Below, piece by piece: positions 1 through 5,203 of a stretch of DNA of 22,496 nt. Position 1 is the stretch's first letter; every line of letters begins with the position of its first letter. The stretch is taken from IMG/VR virus record IMGVR_UViG_3300000301_000103. One strand, 5' to 3'. The notes below the pieces were generated by a model. It did no database searches. It saw nothing but the letters and a program-made list of their open reading frames with translations, and was not told the origin of the DNA. Origin of the DNA: a virus. Taxonomy: Duplodnaviria > Heunggongvirae > Uroviricota > Caudoviricetes. Both the position numbers and the translations under genes were made by a program.

Positions 1-1
1 A

Positions 2-1514
2 CAGACGATGAACGCGACTCGATTGCTTGCCGGCTTCACAATGGCTGAAGCTGACGGTGTGCGTTCCGCAATCGGTAAGAAGAACATGGAAAAAATGAAG
101 AGCATGGGCGAGAAGTTCATCGTTCAGGCTCAAGCTGGCTGGATAGACGTTGAGCTGGAAGATGGCACTACACAGCGCATTCACCGTGCGGAACATTTTA
201 AATGCGAAGACGGAACTCTGAAAACTGTCGAAGAGGCACTTGAGCACGGCGCAAAACTACCTATAAACGCAGTACGCGTTACAGCGTCACATCCAGGGCT
301 ATCAGAGATGAAAGCGAAGGAGATCTGGACCGCATTCGAAAAAAATGGTGCCTACCAGTTCAATAAATCACACTCCGTTGCTTATTCTTTAATCAGTTAT
401 CAGTCTATGTGGCTAAAGACGCACTACCCTGCTGAGTTCTTCGCAGCTGCGCTCACCATTCTGGGCGAGGATAAGCATCAGGGGCTGGTGAAGGATGCGC
501 TGACCTATGGCATTCGCGTATTGCCACCAGACGTTAATGTGTCATCTAACCGAATTGAGATCCGCACACTCGAAGACGGCAGTCAGGCACTGTATGCGCC
601 ATTCTCTGCTGTGAAAGGCTGTTCTGAAAATGGTTGTCAGGCAATTATGCGTGCGCGTGAGAAAGTTGGTGGCAAATTCGAGTCAGTGGCACAATTCGAT
701 GAAGCGGTCGAGAAGCGTGCATGTAACAGTCGTGTACGCGAGTCGCTTCATAAAGTAGGGGCTTTTGCGTCAATTGAGCCAGGCAGTCTGCCAGCAACTG
801 ATCCTGAACGACTGCGCGACCAGGCTGAGCTGATGGGCAATCTCATCATTGACGCTGTTAAAGCATCACGTCCGTTCGAAATGAATCCTAAGCGTTCTGC
901 CGAAATCAACGTACTCATGACACGTATGGCGGCTGAAATGGGCTTGGGTGAGGAGTTGATACGCCCGACTATTGGTATTAAACCCAAAATCATGATCATT
1001 CTGGACAATGCGAACGGCAATGACGCTCGTACCGGCTACTTCATGGAGAACGGATACGACGACTTTAAGGCAAAACTACTGACAGTTGGAGATCTGCGCA
1101 TGGGCGATCTTTATGTCACGGGTGTTTGTAAGAAGGTTAAGGACAAAGAGAAAGACTATACCAAAGACGAGATAGGCCAGTTCACAGACTTTATGCGGGA
1201 AGAAATTAATCTTGTACGACCAACCTACATTTTGACGTGTGGTAGTCGTTCAANNNNNNNNNNNNNNNNNNNNNNNNNNNNNNNNNNNNNNNNNNNNNNN
1301 NNNNNNNNNNNNNNNNNNNNNNNNNNNNNNNNNNNNNGCACTATTTAACAATAAGAGTAAACCATCAGATCTGATTGGTCGTAAGGAGTACTTCCCAGAG
1401 CTTGATGCAACCGTCTTCTACGGATTTAACCCGAATATCCTGTACTTCCGACCGGAAGAAGGAGAGCGACTGGAGGCCATTCTGGCTGATATCGCGGAGA
1501 CAATAAATAAGTAA
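2..1514 (+). CDS. dnaE: DNA polymerase III alpha subunit (DnaE family), C-terminal part; 5' end lies outside the window; carries a C-terminal UDG-fold-like extension
   Basis: Open from window edge; translation has the DnaE motif region FNKSHSVAYSLISYQSMWLKTHYPAEFFAA. N-run 1254-1337 interrupts it; the reading continues in another frame to TAA at 1512-1514. Confidence 0.8.
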
Positions 1515-1520
1515 TAAAGA

Positions 1521-1548
1521 AAACCCGCCTGTTGGCGGGTTTATAAAG
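1521..1548 (+). terminator. Stem-loop after dnaE (AAACCCGCC-TGTT-GGCGGGTTT followed by TATAAAG)
   Basis: 9-bp GC-rich inverted repeat with 4-nt loop 7 nt after the stop; the T-tract is short, so weak as an intrinsic terminator. Confidence 0.45.
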
Positions 1549-1731: not shown

Positions 1732-1817
1732 TATTCAACTTGTACAATCCTACAAATCTATCCACTCAGGCTTACACCGTCTTCGTTATTGTAGAAATGA
1801 GGATCATCAGCGTTGAA

Positions 1818-2033
1818 TCAGCTTAGAGCAACGACATTTGCTGCTGCTGGGCCTTTAGCCCCATTCTCGATAGAGAATTCGACCTGCTGGCCTTCTTCCA
1901 AAGTGCGGAAATTATTACTCTGAATTGCCGAAAAATGTACAAAAACATCTTTACTGCCATCAGCAGGAGAAATAAAGCCAAAGCCTTTATCAGAGTTAAA
2001 CCATTTTACTAAACCAGTCATTTTATTAGACAT
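1818..2033 (-). CDS. Cold shock protein, CspA family (71 aa)
   Basis: Translation [71 protein letters not shown] matches the CspA pattern including the RNP-like KGFGFI and VFVHF motifs. Start set at the internal ATG (2031-2033) preceded by TAAGAAGGTAATATCT, not the longer ORF-track start. Confidence 0.9.
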
Positions 2034-2250
2034 AGATATTACCTTCTTAATTTTGTGAGCCACATAGTGCGGCGAGAATTTGATCTGTATAGATTGGGAC
2101 TTACTTAGGCACTTAAGGAGGAGACTCACGAAGAAGGGAAATCAGAAGATAACACTGAACTGAGACTGCTTTACTAAAACTGCTTACATAAGGTCTGTCT
2201 TGCAAACCAACGATGCTATTAACGCATACCCCTTCTTTTCATGCAACCTT
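2034..2250 (-). promoter_or_regulatory. cspA-type promoter and long 5' leader with cold-box-like sequence
   Basis: On the minus strand: AT-rich upstream element, TTGCAT (-35, plus 2241-2246), 18-nt spacer, TTAATA (-10, plus 2217-2222), then a ~175-nt leader. Its start (UUGGUUUGCAAGACAGACC...) and end (AUUAAGAAGGUAAUAUCUAUG) resemble the E. coli cspA leader as I recall it. Confidence 0.5.
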
Positions 2251-2362: not shown

Positions 2363-2926
2363 TTATGCGCATTTCGCAATATCTTTGCGGCGTTTAATCA
2401 GTTTCTCCGCAATTTGCTCTATTTCGTTGAAATCTTTCGAGACGCTGTTTCGAAGCGCCAGATTCCATTTACTCAAAGTTCGGGCATTTTGGACAATTTG
2501 ATCGCCCTCTTTAAGTCGTCCGTTATTCATGAGCCATTCAGCCACATCAGCCCAATCCCAGAGAGGAGACTGGCCTTTTATGCGTTGTACAGGGCAAGGG
2601 AAGTCGCCGCTTCCGCGCTTACCGTCTTTGAGCAACGCCACTGCCTGGCGAGACAGGTCTGTCAGTTCCGCGATATCGCTTAAGCCCACAAGAGCCGAGT
2701 CGACGGATTCAACAATTGCACCGATACCGGCTGATTCAATATTGTCGACCGCAGATGCGATAGCTGCATCAAGTGATTGTGCTTCGCGGTCAAATTCTAC
2801 ATAGACGGAGTTTCCATATGCGCAAATTAGCGCATCGTCACAGCCGTTTTGGTACAGCGCGTCTTCCAGTCCTTCCGTCTCATACGATACGCCTGAGAGC
2901 GTCAGAGTGAAGTTATAAAGCGCCAT
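2363..2926 (-). CDS. DNA-binding protein with XRE-type helix-turn-helix (possible antitoxin or repressor)
   Basis: Start ATG (plus 2924-2926) preceded by AAAGGAAAACT; HTH-like segment LVGLSDIAELTDLSRQAVALLKDGKR. The ORF-track start 12 codons upstream lacks an RBS. Confidence 0.6.
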   Translation of the reverse strand: MALYNFTLTLSGVSYETEGLEDALYQNGCDDALICAYGNSVYVEFDREAQSLDAAIASAVDNIESAGIGAIVESVDSALVGLSDIAELTDLSRQAVALLKDGKRGSGDFPCPVQRIKGQSPLWDWADVAEWLMNNGRLKEGDQIVQNARTLSKWNLALRNSVSKDFNEIEQIAEKLIKRRKDIAKCA

Positions 2927-2986
2927 AGTTTTCCTTTGAAGATAGTTGGACAGTTTCTGCAAAAGGCGGCTAATGCCGCCTTGAAA

Positions 2987-3295
2987 TCATTTACAACGAT
3001 CAACCATTCGTTTGATCTGTTTGGCATGGTTTTCGGGATTACCCGGAGTCGACCATACGCTCATTTGGNNNNNNNNNNNNNNNNNNNNNNNNNNNNNNNN
3101 NNNNNNNNNNNNNNNNNNNNNNNNNNNNNNNNNNNNNNNNNNNNNNNNNNNNNNAGTTTTGTGTTCACCTTCTGGATTACCGCATCGCAGTCTGCAAAAA
3201 CAATGTGCAGCACCACCAGCAGCTACCCAGATCCAGCCTTTACTTAATGCATAGTCAATGGCTGCTTGAATATGCTTATTCGGATGTTGCTTCAT
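2987..3295 (-). CDS. Small hypothetical protein, first gene of a two-gene module (interrupted by N-run 3069-3154)
   Basis: ATG at plus 3293-3295 preceded by GGAGG and a sigma70-like promoter; N-term MKQHPNKHIQAAIDYALSKGWIWVAAGGAAHCF. Middle of the protein is hidden by Ns. Confidence 0.5.
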   Translation of the reverse strand: MKQHPNKHIQAAIDYALSKGWIWVAAGGAAHCFCRLRCGNPEGEHKTXXXXXXXXXXXXXXXXXXXXXXXXXXXXXQMSVWSTPGNPENHAKQIKRMVDRCK

Positions 3296-4098: not shown

Positions 4099-5203
4099 AT
4101 GTCTAAGACATTACTTGATTTGCTTAACAAAACTCGTGAAGACATTGCCGCCAAACGTGGCAACAACGTTGATCTGACTCGCTTAAAAGACGGCGTCAAC
4201 TATATCCGCATCTTCCCGAATAAAGACGACCCAAACGGTAAGTTCTTCCAGACTTTCGGTATGCACTACGTTAAGTATCAGAACGAGGAAGGTAAAGAAG
4301 CAACCAACGCTTATATTTGTGAGCAACATACTCACGGTCGCGCTTGTCAGCTATGCGAAATGGTGATGGAAGGTCGCGCTCGTCACAAGGGTAACAAAGC
4401 AATGGAAGAACGCATCGGTCAAATGCGTGCCACTCCTCGCTACCTGGTCAACGGCATTCTTTCTGCTCGTGAGGATTTCGCAGATGCTGAGAAATGCCAG
4501 TTAATCGAGCTGCCGTCTACTGTATTCGATGATATCTGCAAAGCAATCACCGAAGACATCGCTGATGATATCGGCAATCCACTGAGCAAAGAGGAAGGCT
4601 ACGCATTCCTGATTAAACGTACTGGCTCTGGTCGCGATACCAAATATGACGTCTCGCCTAAGCGTAAAGTCTACAAAGGCGATATCGAAGATAAATTCTG
4701 GAACACCCAGCATGATCTGATCGCATACGCAAATCAGGCTGATGAAACTCGTCTTCTGTCGACAGTTCGCACTATGGGTCGTCTGATTGGCATCGCTGCA
4801 CCAACTGCCGCAGCATCTGCACCAGCAATTTCCTCAACCGCGAAAACATCGGCTGCGGCACTACCTGGATTTGGCTCTGTCACTGGTCATACAGAAGGAG
4901 CGACGGCTGTAGCAACCGCGCACACACCGGCTTCTGAACCAACCAGTCTGGTTGATGAAGAAATCCTCCGTGCCGTTGAAACTGAATTTAAACCAGAGGC
5001 AAGTTCCGCTGCCGTTGCCGTATCAGTCAAAGAGTCTGAAGCAGTCGCAGCGACATCTGTAGCAACCGCATCTGCGACGGAAGATNNNNNNNNNNNNNNN
5101 NNNNNNNNNNNNNNNNNNNNNNNNNNNNNNNNNNNNNNNNNNNNNNNNNNNNNNNNNNNNNNNNNNNCTGGATGACCTACTGAGAGAGCTGGACTCTCTG
5201 TAA
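4099..5203 (+). CDS. Single-stranded DNA-binding protein, T4 gp32-like (zinc-binding), with Ala/Ser/Thr-rich linker and acidic tail
   Basis: ATG preceded by AAGGAG; YIRIFPNKDDPNGKFF resembles the gp32 N-terminal region; Cys-x3-His-x5-Cys-x2-Cys (CEQHTHGRACQLC) fits the gp32 zinc site pattern. After N-run 5086-5167 the tail LDDLLRELDSL ends at TAA 5201-5203 in a different frame. Confidence 0.7.

What the first reader, a model, noticed from the sequence alone, without database searches (positions are those of the whole stretch)
1000..1514. DnaE-family polymerase with a C-terminal UDG-fold-like domain lacking the catalytic motif
After the DnaE motifs, the last ~120 residues (PKIMIILDNANGNDARTGYFMENGYDDFKAKLLTVGDLRMGDLYVTGVCKK...LVRPTYILTCGS) follow the spacing of family-4 uracil-DNA glycosylases (G-x-PF-x-G, hydrophobic-YxTN-x-KC, PxxIIxLG). 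The GE(A/G)PG catalytic motif is replaced by LDNANGND. A glycosylase-like module fused to a replicative polymerase could act as a uracil or damaged-base sensor, or be an inactivated remnant.
Basis: inference. Interest (0 to 1): 0.55.

Follow-up and report, generated by a model that had tools for sequence, protein, structure and literature searches.

The report
Phage DnaE polymerase with dead UDG-fold tail
The end of this phage-plasmid DNA polymerase gene really does encode a domain descended from uracil-DNA glycosylases that has lost the residues needed to recognise and cut out uracil. This architecture was already reported in 2014, and the domain's job is still untested; my inference is that it is a non-catalytic DNA-handling or tethering tail.

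Summary
Window 1-1514 (+) is the 3' part of the 1172-aa dnaE-like gene of an SSU5-like E. coli phage-plasmid (99.7% identical to pCTX and phage Cyrano). After the PHP, Pol3, fingers and (HhH)2 domains, residues 987-1172 (window 872-1511) form a family-4 UDG fold.

- **Homology:** a profile of the domain family matches solved family-4 UDGs at E = 3e-23. The AlphaFold model (pLDDT 95) superposes on them at TM 0.79.
- **N-run:** the 84 Ns at 1254-1337 stand for only 2 bases, so the ORF is continuous and the domain is about 185 aa, not about 120.
- **Lost function:** the uracil-recognition and catalytic residues are gone in the window protein and in all 88 aligned sequences (window protein plus 87 relatives). 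GEAPG becomes xDxP(N/S/T) (LDNAN here). Asn80 is never Asn, His155 is His in 1 of 88, and the Fe-S cysteines are absent here.
- **Selection:** the domain is under purifying selection as strong as the rest of the polymerase (pN/pS about 0.05), so it is not a decaying remnant.

Timinskas et al. 2014 already reported this variant in Y. pestis and S. enterica, with OB and CTD replaced by an archaeal-type UDG domain. The most likely role is a non-catalytic tail replacing the OB and tau-binding domains, parallel to the inactive UDG domains of N4-like PolA and to poxvirus UDG. That role is inferred, not shown.

The parts
1..1514 (+). 3' part (codons 697-1172 plus stop) of the phage-plasmid dnaE-like gene; the full protein is 1172 aa (WP_023145129.1 in pCTX)
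   Evidence: 99.7% identity to pCTX NZ_CP047004.1 and phage Cyrano OV696614. Pfam PHP, DNA_pol3_alpha, DNA_pol3_finger and HHH_6. NCBIfam TIGR00594 at 626.7 bits, above its cut-off of 434. Catalytic Asp triad kept, PDADLDF and KLDVLGL.
131..292 (+). about 55-aa insertion (aa 740-793) between the fingers and the HhH region, absent from most relatives; the same site is where relatives are split or carry large insertions
   Evidence: Local phmmer mapping of the pCTX DnaE onto 120 relatives leaves a gap at query positions about 740-793. In L083 an HNH/NUMOD homing endonuclease ORF sits directly upstream of the separate HhH+UDG-like ORF.
509..778 (+). (HhH)2 domain, aa 866-955
   Evidence: Pfam HHH_6 at E = 3e-16. 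Aligns to E. coli Pol III alpha up to residue 896.
809..844 (+). conserved linker motif RLRDQAELMGNL (family consensus R.KDQ.EL.PGL); candidate internal beta-clamp-binding motif (QAELM compared with E. coli QADMF)
   Evidence: Conserved in at least 50% of 75 aligned sequences whose domains share only about 25% identity. The position after the HhH domain is like that of E. coli 920-QADMF-924. Clamp binding is inferred, not tested.
872..1511 (+). UDG-fold C-terminal domain (aa 987-1172), interrupted in the window by the artefactual N-run
1001..1024 (+). motif-1 remnant LDNANGND in place of GE(A/G)PG...E. Leu, Asp, Asn, Ala and Asn replace G40, E41, G42, P43 and G44; Asp1037 sits at E47
   Evidence: Profile alignments to 4zbx and 1ui0; residue census.
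1034..1054 (+). GYFMENG in place of G-R-P-F-V-G-x; Met1044 sits at the position of the uracil-stacking Phe54
1112..1132 (+). YVTGVCK in place of Y-I-T-N-x-x-K-C. Gly1070 sits at the uracil-recognising Asn80 and Lys1074 at the Fe-S cysteine
   Evidence: the role of N80 is from PMC5387724.
1254..1337 (.). N-run of 84 bases that stands for 2 real bases (CC, completing codon Thr1114); assembly artefact
   Evidence: Alignment to pCTX. The same result holds for pCTX and Cyrano, and 15 N-runs that could be checked overstate the gap by about 75-84 nt.
1425..1436 (+). motif-2 remnant FNPN in place of (Y)HPS; Asn1145 sits at the catalytic His155
1521..1542 (.). G+C-rich hairpin between the convergent dnaE and csp genes; terminator-like
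   Evidence: scored on the minus strand; the sequence is palindromic and T/A-flanked on both sides.

Best explanation
The tail of this phage-plasmid DnaE (aa 987-1172) is a domain derived from a family-4 (archaeal/thermophile-type) uracil-DNA glycosylase. It keeps the UDG alpha/beta core but has lost uracil recognition, the catalytic histidine and, in this clade, the Fe-S cluster. It occupies the place of the OB-fold and tau-binding C-terminal domains of cellular DnaE. Most likely it no longer excises bases and serves as a non-catalytic module of the replicase. In that role it would be a DNA-handling or tethering tail that helps a clamp-loader-less phage replisome (DnaE, epsilon-like exonuclease, DnaB-like helicase, primase, gp32-like SSB) stay on the DNA or stay coupled to its partners. 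Shown here: homology, fold, loss of the active-site residues across the family, strong purifying selection, absence of OB and CTD, and absence of annotated clamp, clamp loader and stand-alone UDG genes in a complete relative. Inferred: that it binds DNA or partners and contributes to processivity or coupling.
For: Fold and homology: family profile against PDB family-4 UDGs at E = 3e-23 to 9e-18, and UdgX at about 1e-14. 50 of 52 members hit PF03167. AF2 pLDDT 95.3 with Foldseek TM 0.76-0.79 to 1vk2, 1ui0 and 4zbx. Loss of function, from a census of 88 aligned sequences: N80 position is 0/88 Asn, H155 position is 1/88 His, F54 position is aromatic in 8/88, E41 is Asp in 77/88, and the KC cysteine is kept in 6/88. 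In Tth UDGa, H155S costs more than three orders of magnitude in k2/Km, E41Q about 900-fold and N80A about 40-fold (PMC5387724). Not a relic: 117 cluster representatives carry the domain, about 45 of them full-length DnaE-like proteins of 1080-1140 aa co-linear to the C-terminus. pN/pS is about 0.05, equal to the HhH region. Replacement of OB and CTD: no Pfam domain other than UDG follows HHH_6, as stated in PMC3919608. Replisome context: no clamp, clamp loader, UDG or dUTPase is annotated in the complete Cyrano genome. Modularity: in about 30 relatives HhH plus UDG-like is a separate polypeptide. Precedents: inactive family-4 UDG domains in N4-like PolA proposed as processivity modules (PMC10201439); the same idea for SPO1 and T5 PolA and vaccinia D4 (PMC3201878). 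The DnaE-fused domain also matches the UDG domains of phage PolAs by tblastn, E = 1e-14 to 1e-4.
Against: No experiment or complex model bears on DNA binding, processivity or partner binding; these tools cannot test them. A conserved QxEL(M/L)PGL motif just upstream may recruit the host beta clamp. If so, the domain is not needed as a clamp substitute and its role would be narrower. Motif 1 is remodelled rather than randomised: D at position 41 in 77/88, P at 43 in 64/88, and E/D at 47 in 81/88. That hints the pocket still does something. The SSU5-like clade has Asn at position 42 and Asn in motif 2, a pattern reminiscent of MUG/TDG (my recollection of those motifs, not tested here).
Confidence: 0.55

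Rival explanations
1. Protein-protein adaptor only. The UDG-fold tail has been re-used as a docking surface in place of the tau-binding CTD, for the phage helicase or primase, the epsilon-like exonuclease or the host beta clamp. It would make no significant DNA contact.
For: It replaces the domains that in E. coli alpha bind tau and the clamp (established knowledge; architecture). The element encodes its own helicase, primase and epsilon-like exonuclease but no tau or clamp loader. HhH plus UDG-like exists as a separate subunit in split genes and so must dock onto the core.
Against: The most conserved positions are the structural core and the loops that contact DNA in UDGs, including the remodelled motifs 1 and 2. 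No partner interface was identified. In all known polymerase-associated UDG modules (SP15-like PolA, mpox E4) the domain lies on the DNA path (bioRxiv 10.1101/2025.03.26.645540).
Confidence: 0.2
2. Read-ahead template sensor. The domain still flips out and binds a base or lesion (uracil, an abasic site or another lesion) without cutting it. It would stall or signal to the polymerase, like the uracil pocket of archaeal family-B polymerases or the active UDG of SP15-like PolA.
For: Acidic residues at positions 41 and 47 and Pro43 of the pocket are conserved. An active UDG domain fused to a phage PolA reads dU on the template ahead of the fork. The phage-plasmid has no annotated UDG or dUTPase of its own.
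Against: The residues that give uracil specificity and stacking (N80, F54, H155) are replaced in essentially all members. No lesion preference can be deduced from the sequence.
Confidence: 0.12
3. Still an active glycosylase with altered chemistry or specificity. The SSU5-like clade has Asp-Asn at motif-1 positions 41-42 and Asn-Pro in motif 2, which recalls the Asn-based active site of MUG/TDG (family 2).
For: LDNAN and FNPN in the window protein. Foldseek also finds TDG at E about 1e-5.
Against: Asn at position 42 occurs in only 5 of 88 aligned sequences, while the domain is conserved in all, so the conserved function cannot depend on it. Pro43 and Gly44 of the motif, N80 and F54 are also replaced. 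The window protein scores far below the curated UDG cut-offs, 34 against 125 bits and 15.7 against 24.3 bits.
Confidence: 0.06
4. Functionless evolutionary remnant of a once active UDG fusion.
For: The catalytic residues are lost.
Against: pN/pS is about 0.05 with near-saturated synonymous divergence, equal to the HhH region. The domain is kept at the C-terminus in 117 cluster representatives from phages of Enterobacterales, Pseudomonas, Rhizobium and Stenotrophomonas. Y81 and E111 are invariant and seven further positions nearly invariant. AF2 confidence is very high.
Confidence: 0.02

Closest known systems
DnaE variant with the OB and CTD domains replaced by an archaeal-type UDG domain (Timinskas, Balvociute, Timinskas & Venclovas, NAR 2014; PMC3919608)
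   Same: The same protein family. The variant was described as an additional polymerase in some Yersinia pestis and Salmonella enterica strains. I infer these sit on pMT1/pHCM2-type SSU5-like phage-plasmids; the paper does not say so. The window matches Yersinia (63) and Salmonella (46) plasmids at the DNA level. The architecture is the same: PHP-Pol3-(HhH)2-UDG (PF03167).
   Different: Nothing essential. The paper gives one sentence and a figure panel. In what I read it does not discuss loss of catalytic residues, distribution in lytic phages, split genes or function.
Family-4 uracil-DNA glycosylases (UDGa; T. thermophilus 1ui0, T. maritima 1vk2/1l9g, S. tokodaii 4zbx)
   Same: Same fold and clear sequence homology over the whole domain. 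Shared core motifs include Y-x-T, x-x-K, L..(E/Q)I..l.P.vIv.lG and the P of HPS. About 40% of relatives keep CxxC plus a later Cys.
   Different: GE(A/G)PG, Phe54, Asn80 and His155 are replaced. Asn89 falls in a segment the DnaE-family profile lacks. All four Fe-S cysteines are missing in the window protein. It is fused to a polymerase and scores below the curated family cut-offs.
UDG-PolA fusions with an inactive UDG domain (N4-like cluster 17; also SPO1 and T5 PolA N-terminal UDG-like domains; PMC10201439, PMC3201878)
   Same: A family-4 UDG-derived domain with unconserved catalytic residues, covalently joined to a phage replicative polymerase in genomes that lack a clamp. A processivity role is proposed but untested. 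Sequence similarity between the DnaE-fused and PolA-fused domains is detectable.
   Different: The polymerase family differs (A, not C). The domain is N-terminal there and C-terminal here. In N4-like enzymes a helix and beta-hairpin are deleted.
SP15-like PolA with an active UDG domain (bioRxiv 10.1101/2025.03.26.645540) and poxvirus UDG (D4/E4) in the B-family holoenzyme
   Same: A UDG-fold module is an integral part of a viral replicase and sits on the template path.
   Different: Those UDGs are catalytically competent. SP15-like enzymes excise dU ahead of the fork. The poxvirus UDG is a separate subunit.

Membership tests
UDG superfamily fold (PF03167 clan) | alpha/beta UDG fold with a central parallel sheet | tested here: met
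   AF2 model at pLDDT 95.3; Foldseek top hits are all UDGs with TM 0.76-0.79 to family 4. The model is of an 82%-identical orthologue (P0001), not the exact window protein.
UDG superfamily fold (PF03167 clan) | significant sequence-profile match | tested here: met
   Family profile against 4zbx at E = 3.3e-23; 50/52 relatives hit PF03167 at E <= 0.01. The window protein alone scores 15.7 bits, below the gathering score of 24.3.
Family-4 UDG (UDGa) enzymes | motif 1 GE(A/G)PG (E41-G42 doublet) | tested here: not met
   LDNAN in the window protein; xDxP(N/S/T) in the family.
Family-4 UDG (UDGa) enzymes | motif 2 HPS with catalytic His (H155) | tested here: not met
   FNPN in the window protein; His in 1/88 aligned sequences, Asn in 53, Ser in 21, Thr in 10.
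Family-4 UDG (UDGa) enzymes | uracil-recognising Asn (N80) and stacking Phe (F54) | tested here: not met
   Gly1070 and Met1044; Asn in 0/88 and aromatic in 8/88.
Family-4 UDG (UDGa) enzymes | four Cys ligands of the 4Fe-4S cluster | tested here: not met
   None of the ligand positions is Cys in the window protein. 35/88 aligned sequences keep CxxC plus the later Cys, but only 6/88 keep the KC Cys.
Family-4 UDG (UDGa) enzymes | curated model cut-off (TIGR00758 at 125.3 bits; NF040953 at 250 bits) | tested here: not met
   34.0 and 27.4 bits.
Family-4 UDG (UDGa) enzymes | uracil excision activity | not testable with these tools
   Needs a glycosylase assay.
C-family (DnaE-type) DNA polymerases | PHP, Pol3 core with the Asp triad, fingers and (HhH)2 | tested here: met
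   Pfam domains. TIGR00594 at 626.7 bits against a cut-off of 434. PDADLDF and KLDVLGL align to the Taq alpha catalytic Asp residues.
Chromosomal replicative DnaE1 (E. coli alpha type) | OB fold and tau-binding C-terminal domain after (HhH)2 | tested here: not met
   No such domains found; the UDG-fold domain is there instead. NF004226 equivalog scores 675 bits against a cut-off of 1002.
Chromosomal replicative DnaE1 (E. coli alpha type) | internal beta-clamp-binding motif (QADMF-like) after (HhH)2 | tested here: inconclusive
   A conserved QAELM / Q.EL(M/L)PGL motif lies 11 residues after the end of the alignment to E. coli residue 896. Binding was not tested.
DnaE-UDG variant of Timinskas et al. 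2014 | DnaE core followed by a PF03167-type domain instead of OB and CTD, on Yersinia/Salmonella-type extrachromosomal elements | tested here: met
   Architecture. DNA matches to 63 Yersinia and 46 Salmonella plasmid records.

The most novel reading that the evidence does not exclude
The remodelled pocket is a working read-ahead site. Its features are Asp at position 41 in 77/88, Pro43 in 64/88 and E/D at position 47 in 81/88; the SSU5-like clade also has Asn42 and Asn in motif 2. On this reading it flips out a template base, abasic site or other lesion ahead of a C-family polymerase. That would give bacterial-type replicases a template-scanning mechanism so far known only for archaeal B-family polymerases and, with catalysis, for SP15-like PolA.
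Probability: 0.1. Interest if true: 0.65.

Novelty: already known. Interest (0 to 1): 0.3.

Why it matters
UDG-fold modules are now seen attached to viral replicases of all three major polymerase families: A (SPO1, N4, T5, SP15), B (poxvirus, in trans) and C (this one). The C-family case is the least studied. It sits in SSU5/pMT1/pHCM2-type phage-plasmids, which are widespread in Enterobacterales including clinical isolates. Knowing what the dead UDG tail does would explain how a DnaE works without its OB and tau-binding domains, and apparently without its own clamp loader. It would also show whether non-catalytic use of the UDG fold is a general answer to polymerase processivity. For this window, however, the finding repeats a published observation and adds no new kind of system.

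Tried and rejected
1. The search for homologous proteins with the 210-aa tail returned only 6 close fragments.
2. The search for related loci in viral contigs gave 80 loci, all 82-100% identical. These gave no diversity but were later used for pN/pS.
It was redone with orthologue P0001.
4. Literature searches combining SSU5, pMT1 or pHCM2 with polymerase III or uracil found nothing. Aravind & Koonin 2000 (PMC15025) is not held, so I could not check whether they had already noted the fusion.
5. The idea that the N-run hides missing motif residues was rejected; it covers 2 bases.
7. I considered a full-length or HhH+UDG structure prediction to place the domain relative to the DNA path. I did not run it, because the tool returns no coordinates or inter-domain error, so placement could not be read.
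8. No Rfam element overlaps the region apart from the neighbouring cspA thermoregulator.
Full report
**What the window is.** The first 2.4 kb match plasmid pCTX of E. coli J-8 (NZ_CP047004.1) and 63 other plasmids at 99% identity or more over at least 80% of the query. They match Escherichia phage Cyrano at 99.7% and Salmonella phage SSU5 at about 85%. The window therefore comes from an SSU5-like phage-plasmid. Window 1-1514 (+) is the 3' part of a gene annotated dnaE. In pCTX the complete protein is 1172 aa, WP_023145129.1.

**The N-run.** Aligning window 1150-1420 to pCTX shows that the 84 Ns at 1254-1337 correspond to just two bases, CC, which complete codon Thr1114. The 15 N-runs I could check overstate the real gap by about 75-84 nt, which points to a scaffolding artefact. 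The ORF is continuous...LTCGSRS-T-ALFNNKSKPSD...AETINK*. The apparent frame change in the ORF list is not real. The 58 residues after the Ns belong to the same domain.

**Domain architecture.** Pfam finds PHP (6-176), DNA_pol3_alpha (309-571), fingers (574-740) and HHH_6 (866-955). No OB or tau-binding domain follows. The polymerase Asp triad is intact: PDADLDF and KLDVLGL align to Taq alpha. TIGR00594 is passed at 626.7 bits against a cut-off of 434. The chromosomal DnaE equivalog model is not passed, at 675 against 1002 bits.

**Is the tail a UDG?** Yes, on four lines of evidence.
- The completed tail alone gives weak but specific matches: TIGR00758 UDG_fam4 at E = 2e-8 (34 bits, cut-off 125), Pfam UDG at E = 0.016, and S. 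tokodaii UDG 4zbx at E = 0.01.
- An exhaustive HMMER scan of 1.84 billion cluster representatives with the tail of orthologue P0001 found 117 proteins at E <= 1e-3. Mapping the pCTX DnaE onto them shows about 45 full-length DnaE-like proteins of 1080-1140 aa that are co-linear right to the C-terminus.
- A 52-sequence alignment of the tail (A2) used as a profile hits solved family-4 UDGs over their whole length: 4zbx at 3.3e-23, T. maritima 1vk2/1l9g at 2e-20 and T. thermophilus 1ui0 at 9e-18. UdgX follows at about 1e-14 and family 5 only at 0.013. Fifty of the 52 members hit PF03167 individually.
- AlphaFold2 on P0001 (82% identical to the window protein) with this alignment gives pLDDT 95.3 and pTM 0.91. 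Foldseek against the PDB returns family-4 UDGs first (TM 0.76-0.79), then UdgX, then TDG and family 5. Against viral models it returns phage UDGs and UDG-PolA polymerases such as SP-15.

**Is it catalytically competent?** Almost certainly not as a uracil glycosylase. I mapped the family onto T. thermophilus UDGa numbering using the profile alignments to 4zbx and 1ui0 and an 88-sequence alignment: the pCTX sequence of the window protein plus 87 relatives.

| Tth UDGa position | Role | Window protein | 88 aligned sequences |
|---|---|---|---|
| E41 | motif 1 | Asp | Asp in 77 |
| G42 | motif 1 | Asn | C/A/S/G mostly; Asn in only 5 (SSU5-like clade) |
| P43 | motif 1 | Ala | Pro in 64, Ala in 15 |
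| G44 | motif 1 | Asn | N/S/T mostly |
| E47 | pocket | Asp | E or D in 81 |
| F54 | stacks on uracil | Met | aromatic in 8 |
| N80 | H-bonds to uracil N3 and O4 | Gly | never Asn (A/S/G/T) |
| C84 | Fe-S ligand (KC) | Lys | Cys in 6 |
| H155 | catalytic His | Asn | His in 1; Asn 53, Ser 21, Thr 10 |

N89 falls in a segment that the DnaE-family profile lacks. In Tth UDGa, H155S lowers k2/Km by more than three orders of magnitude, E41Q by about 900-fold and N80A by about 40-fold (PMC5387724).

Thirty-five of the 88 aligned sequences keep an N-terminal CxxC together with a later Cys, and 34 have a nearby His. This is a further trace of family-4 ancestry. The SSU5-like clade, including this window, has none of these cysteines.

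**Is it a relic?** No. Y81 and E111 of the alignment are invariant, and T83, K87, P117, I120, G124, G142 and P160 are nearly so. I compared pCTX with 35 distinct SSU5-like viral contigs. pN/pS in the UDG-like domain is about 0.05 (pN about 0.04, pS 0.6-0.85). The HhH region gives 0.02-0.09 in most loci. The domain is under strong purifying selection.

**Distribution and relatives.** tblastn of a divergent member against 50,697 phage records finds the domain at the end of the DnaE of several phages. These are Pseudomonas phages ZY21, nickie and phiK7B1, Rhizobium RHph phages, Stenotrophomonas ANB28 and the SSU5-like group. More weakly (E = 1e-14 to 1e-4) it matches the UDG domains of A-family polymerases of SPO1-like Bacillus phages and of PMBT14, Lebethron and others.

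**Replisome context.** The complete annotated genome of phage Cyrano encodes the following:
- a DnaB-like helicase, a primase and a ligase;
- this DnaE and an epsilon-like exonuclease;
- RNase H and a gp32-like SSB;
- UvsX/Y/W-like proteins, SbcCD and RuvC;
- RNR, ThyX, DHFR and a MazG-like enzyme.

It has no annotated sliding clamp, clamp loader, stand-alone UDG or dUTPase. Between the HhH domain and the UDG-like domain lies a motif conserved across the family, R.KDQ.EL.PGL (RLRDQAELMGNL here, window 809-844). In sequence and position it resembles the internal beta-binding motif 920-QADMF-924 of E. coli alpha. That it binds the host clamp is my inference.

**Prior art.** Timinskas et al. (NAR 2014, PMC3919608) state the architecture directly. 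[quoted passage not shown] PF03167'. The window's DNA matches 63 Yersinia and 46 Salmonella plasmid records, so this is the same family and the architecture is already known.

Related ideas exist for other polymerase families.
- Kazlauskas & Venclovas 2011 noted that viral C-family polymerases have unexplained C-terminal regions. They proposed the UDG-like domains of SPO1 and T5 PolA as intrinsic processivity factors, by analogy with vaccinia D4.
- Czernecki et al. 2023 described N4-like PolAs with a family-4 UDG domain whose catalytic residues are unconserved, possibly a processivity module.
- Missoury et al. 2025 showed that SP15-like PolAs carry an active UDG that reads dU on the template ahead of the fork, at the same place as the UDG in the mpox holoenzyme.

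I found no experimental work on the DnaE-UDG tail.

**Mechanism.** What is shown: the domain is a family-4-UDG-derived fold, it lacks the uracil-recognition and catalytic residues, it replaces OB and CTD, and it is strongly conserved. What I infer as most likely (confidence 0.55): it is a non-catalytic DNA-handling or tethering tail of a replicase that has no clamp loader of its own.

The rivals, with my confidence in each:
- a pure protein-docking adaptor (0.2);
- a non-cutting read-ahead lesion sensor (0.12), weakened by the loss of N80, F54 and H155;
- a glycosylase with MUG-like Asn chemistry (0.06), weakened because Asn42 is confined to one clade;
- a functionless remnant (0.02), contradicted by pN/pS.

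One observation favours a modular DNA-binding unit. In about 30 relatives the HhH plus UDG-like part is a separate polypeptide. In L083 it follows directly on an HNH/NUMOD homing-endonuclease ORF.

**Verdict.** The 'uracil sensor' idea is unlikely, and the 'remnant' idea is wrong in the sense of functionless. The finding is already in the literature, so novelty is 'already known' and interest is modest (0.3). The open question, what a dead UDG tail does for a C-family polymerase, remains experimentally untouched.

Noticed in passing
window 1254-1337, 3069-3154, 5086-5167 and 16 further N-runs: 15 of the 19 N-runs could be compared with pCTX or Cyrano, and all overstate the real gap by about 75-84 nt (84 N = 2 nt, 175 N = 94 nt, 68 N = an 11-nt overlap). 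This looks like a scaffolder gap-size artefact, and reading frames appear to shift across each run.
   Followed up: yes
window 1793-2211 (-): A complete cspA thermoregulator 5' UTR (Rfam RF01766, 185.7 bits, gathering score 78) with a CspA-family cold-shock gene (annotated cspG in pCTX), convergent with dnaE. Phage Cyrano appears to lack an annotated csp gene at this place.
   Followed up: partly
window 1521-1542 and 2338-2361: Two G+C-rich terminator-like hairpins. The first lies between the convergent dnaE and csp genes and could act in both directions. The second follows the hicB-like gene.
   Followed up: no
window 131-292 (aa 740-793 of DnaE); L083:3-569; P0038, P0088, P0114: The junction between the fingers and the HhH region is a hotspot for insertions. 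The window protein has a 55-aa insert there. About 30 relatives are split into two ORFs at that point; in L083 an HNH/NUMOD homing endonuclease ORF sits directly upstream of the C-terminal half. Three relatives carry extra sequence of about 130-445 aa in the core (P0038 at this junction; P0088 and P0114 mainly near aa 485-525), possibly inteins.
   Followed up: partly
window 809-844 (+): A family-wide conserved linker motif, R.KDQ.EL.PGL (RLRDQAELMGNL here), resembling the E. coli alpha internal clamp-binding motif QADMF. Kazlauskas & Venclovas 2011 reported a clamp-binding-type motif for only one phage C-family polymerase (0305phi8-36).
   Followed up: partly
relatives P0087, P0067, P0059, P0026 and others (domain alignment A2): 35 of 88 aligned UDG-like tails keep CxxCxL plus a later Cys, and 34 have a conserved His after the CxxC, while the canonical KC cysteine is usually lost. 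This could be a 3-Cys/1-His metal or Fe-S site. It is absent from the SSU5-like clade.
   Followed up: partly
L010-L075 compared with pCTX, DnaE aa 795-960 and 987-1172: In many SSU5-like contigs, synonymous divergence from pCTX is higher in the UDG-like domain (pS 0.70-0.85) than in the adjacent HhH region (0.45-0.68). This suggests mosaic recombination inside the gene. Megablast matches to SSU5 and PhiR41_1 also stop at the N-run.
   Followed up: no
window 2363-3295 (-): A hicB-like antitoxin ORF and an adjacent small ORF annotated HicA toxin in phage Cyrano lie directly downstream of the csp gene, inside the replication and recombination gene block.
   Followed up: no
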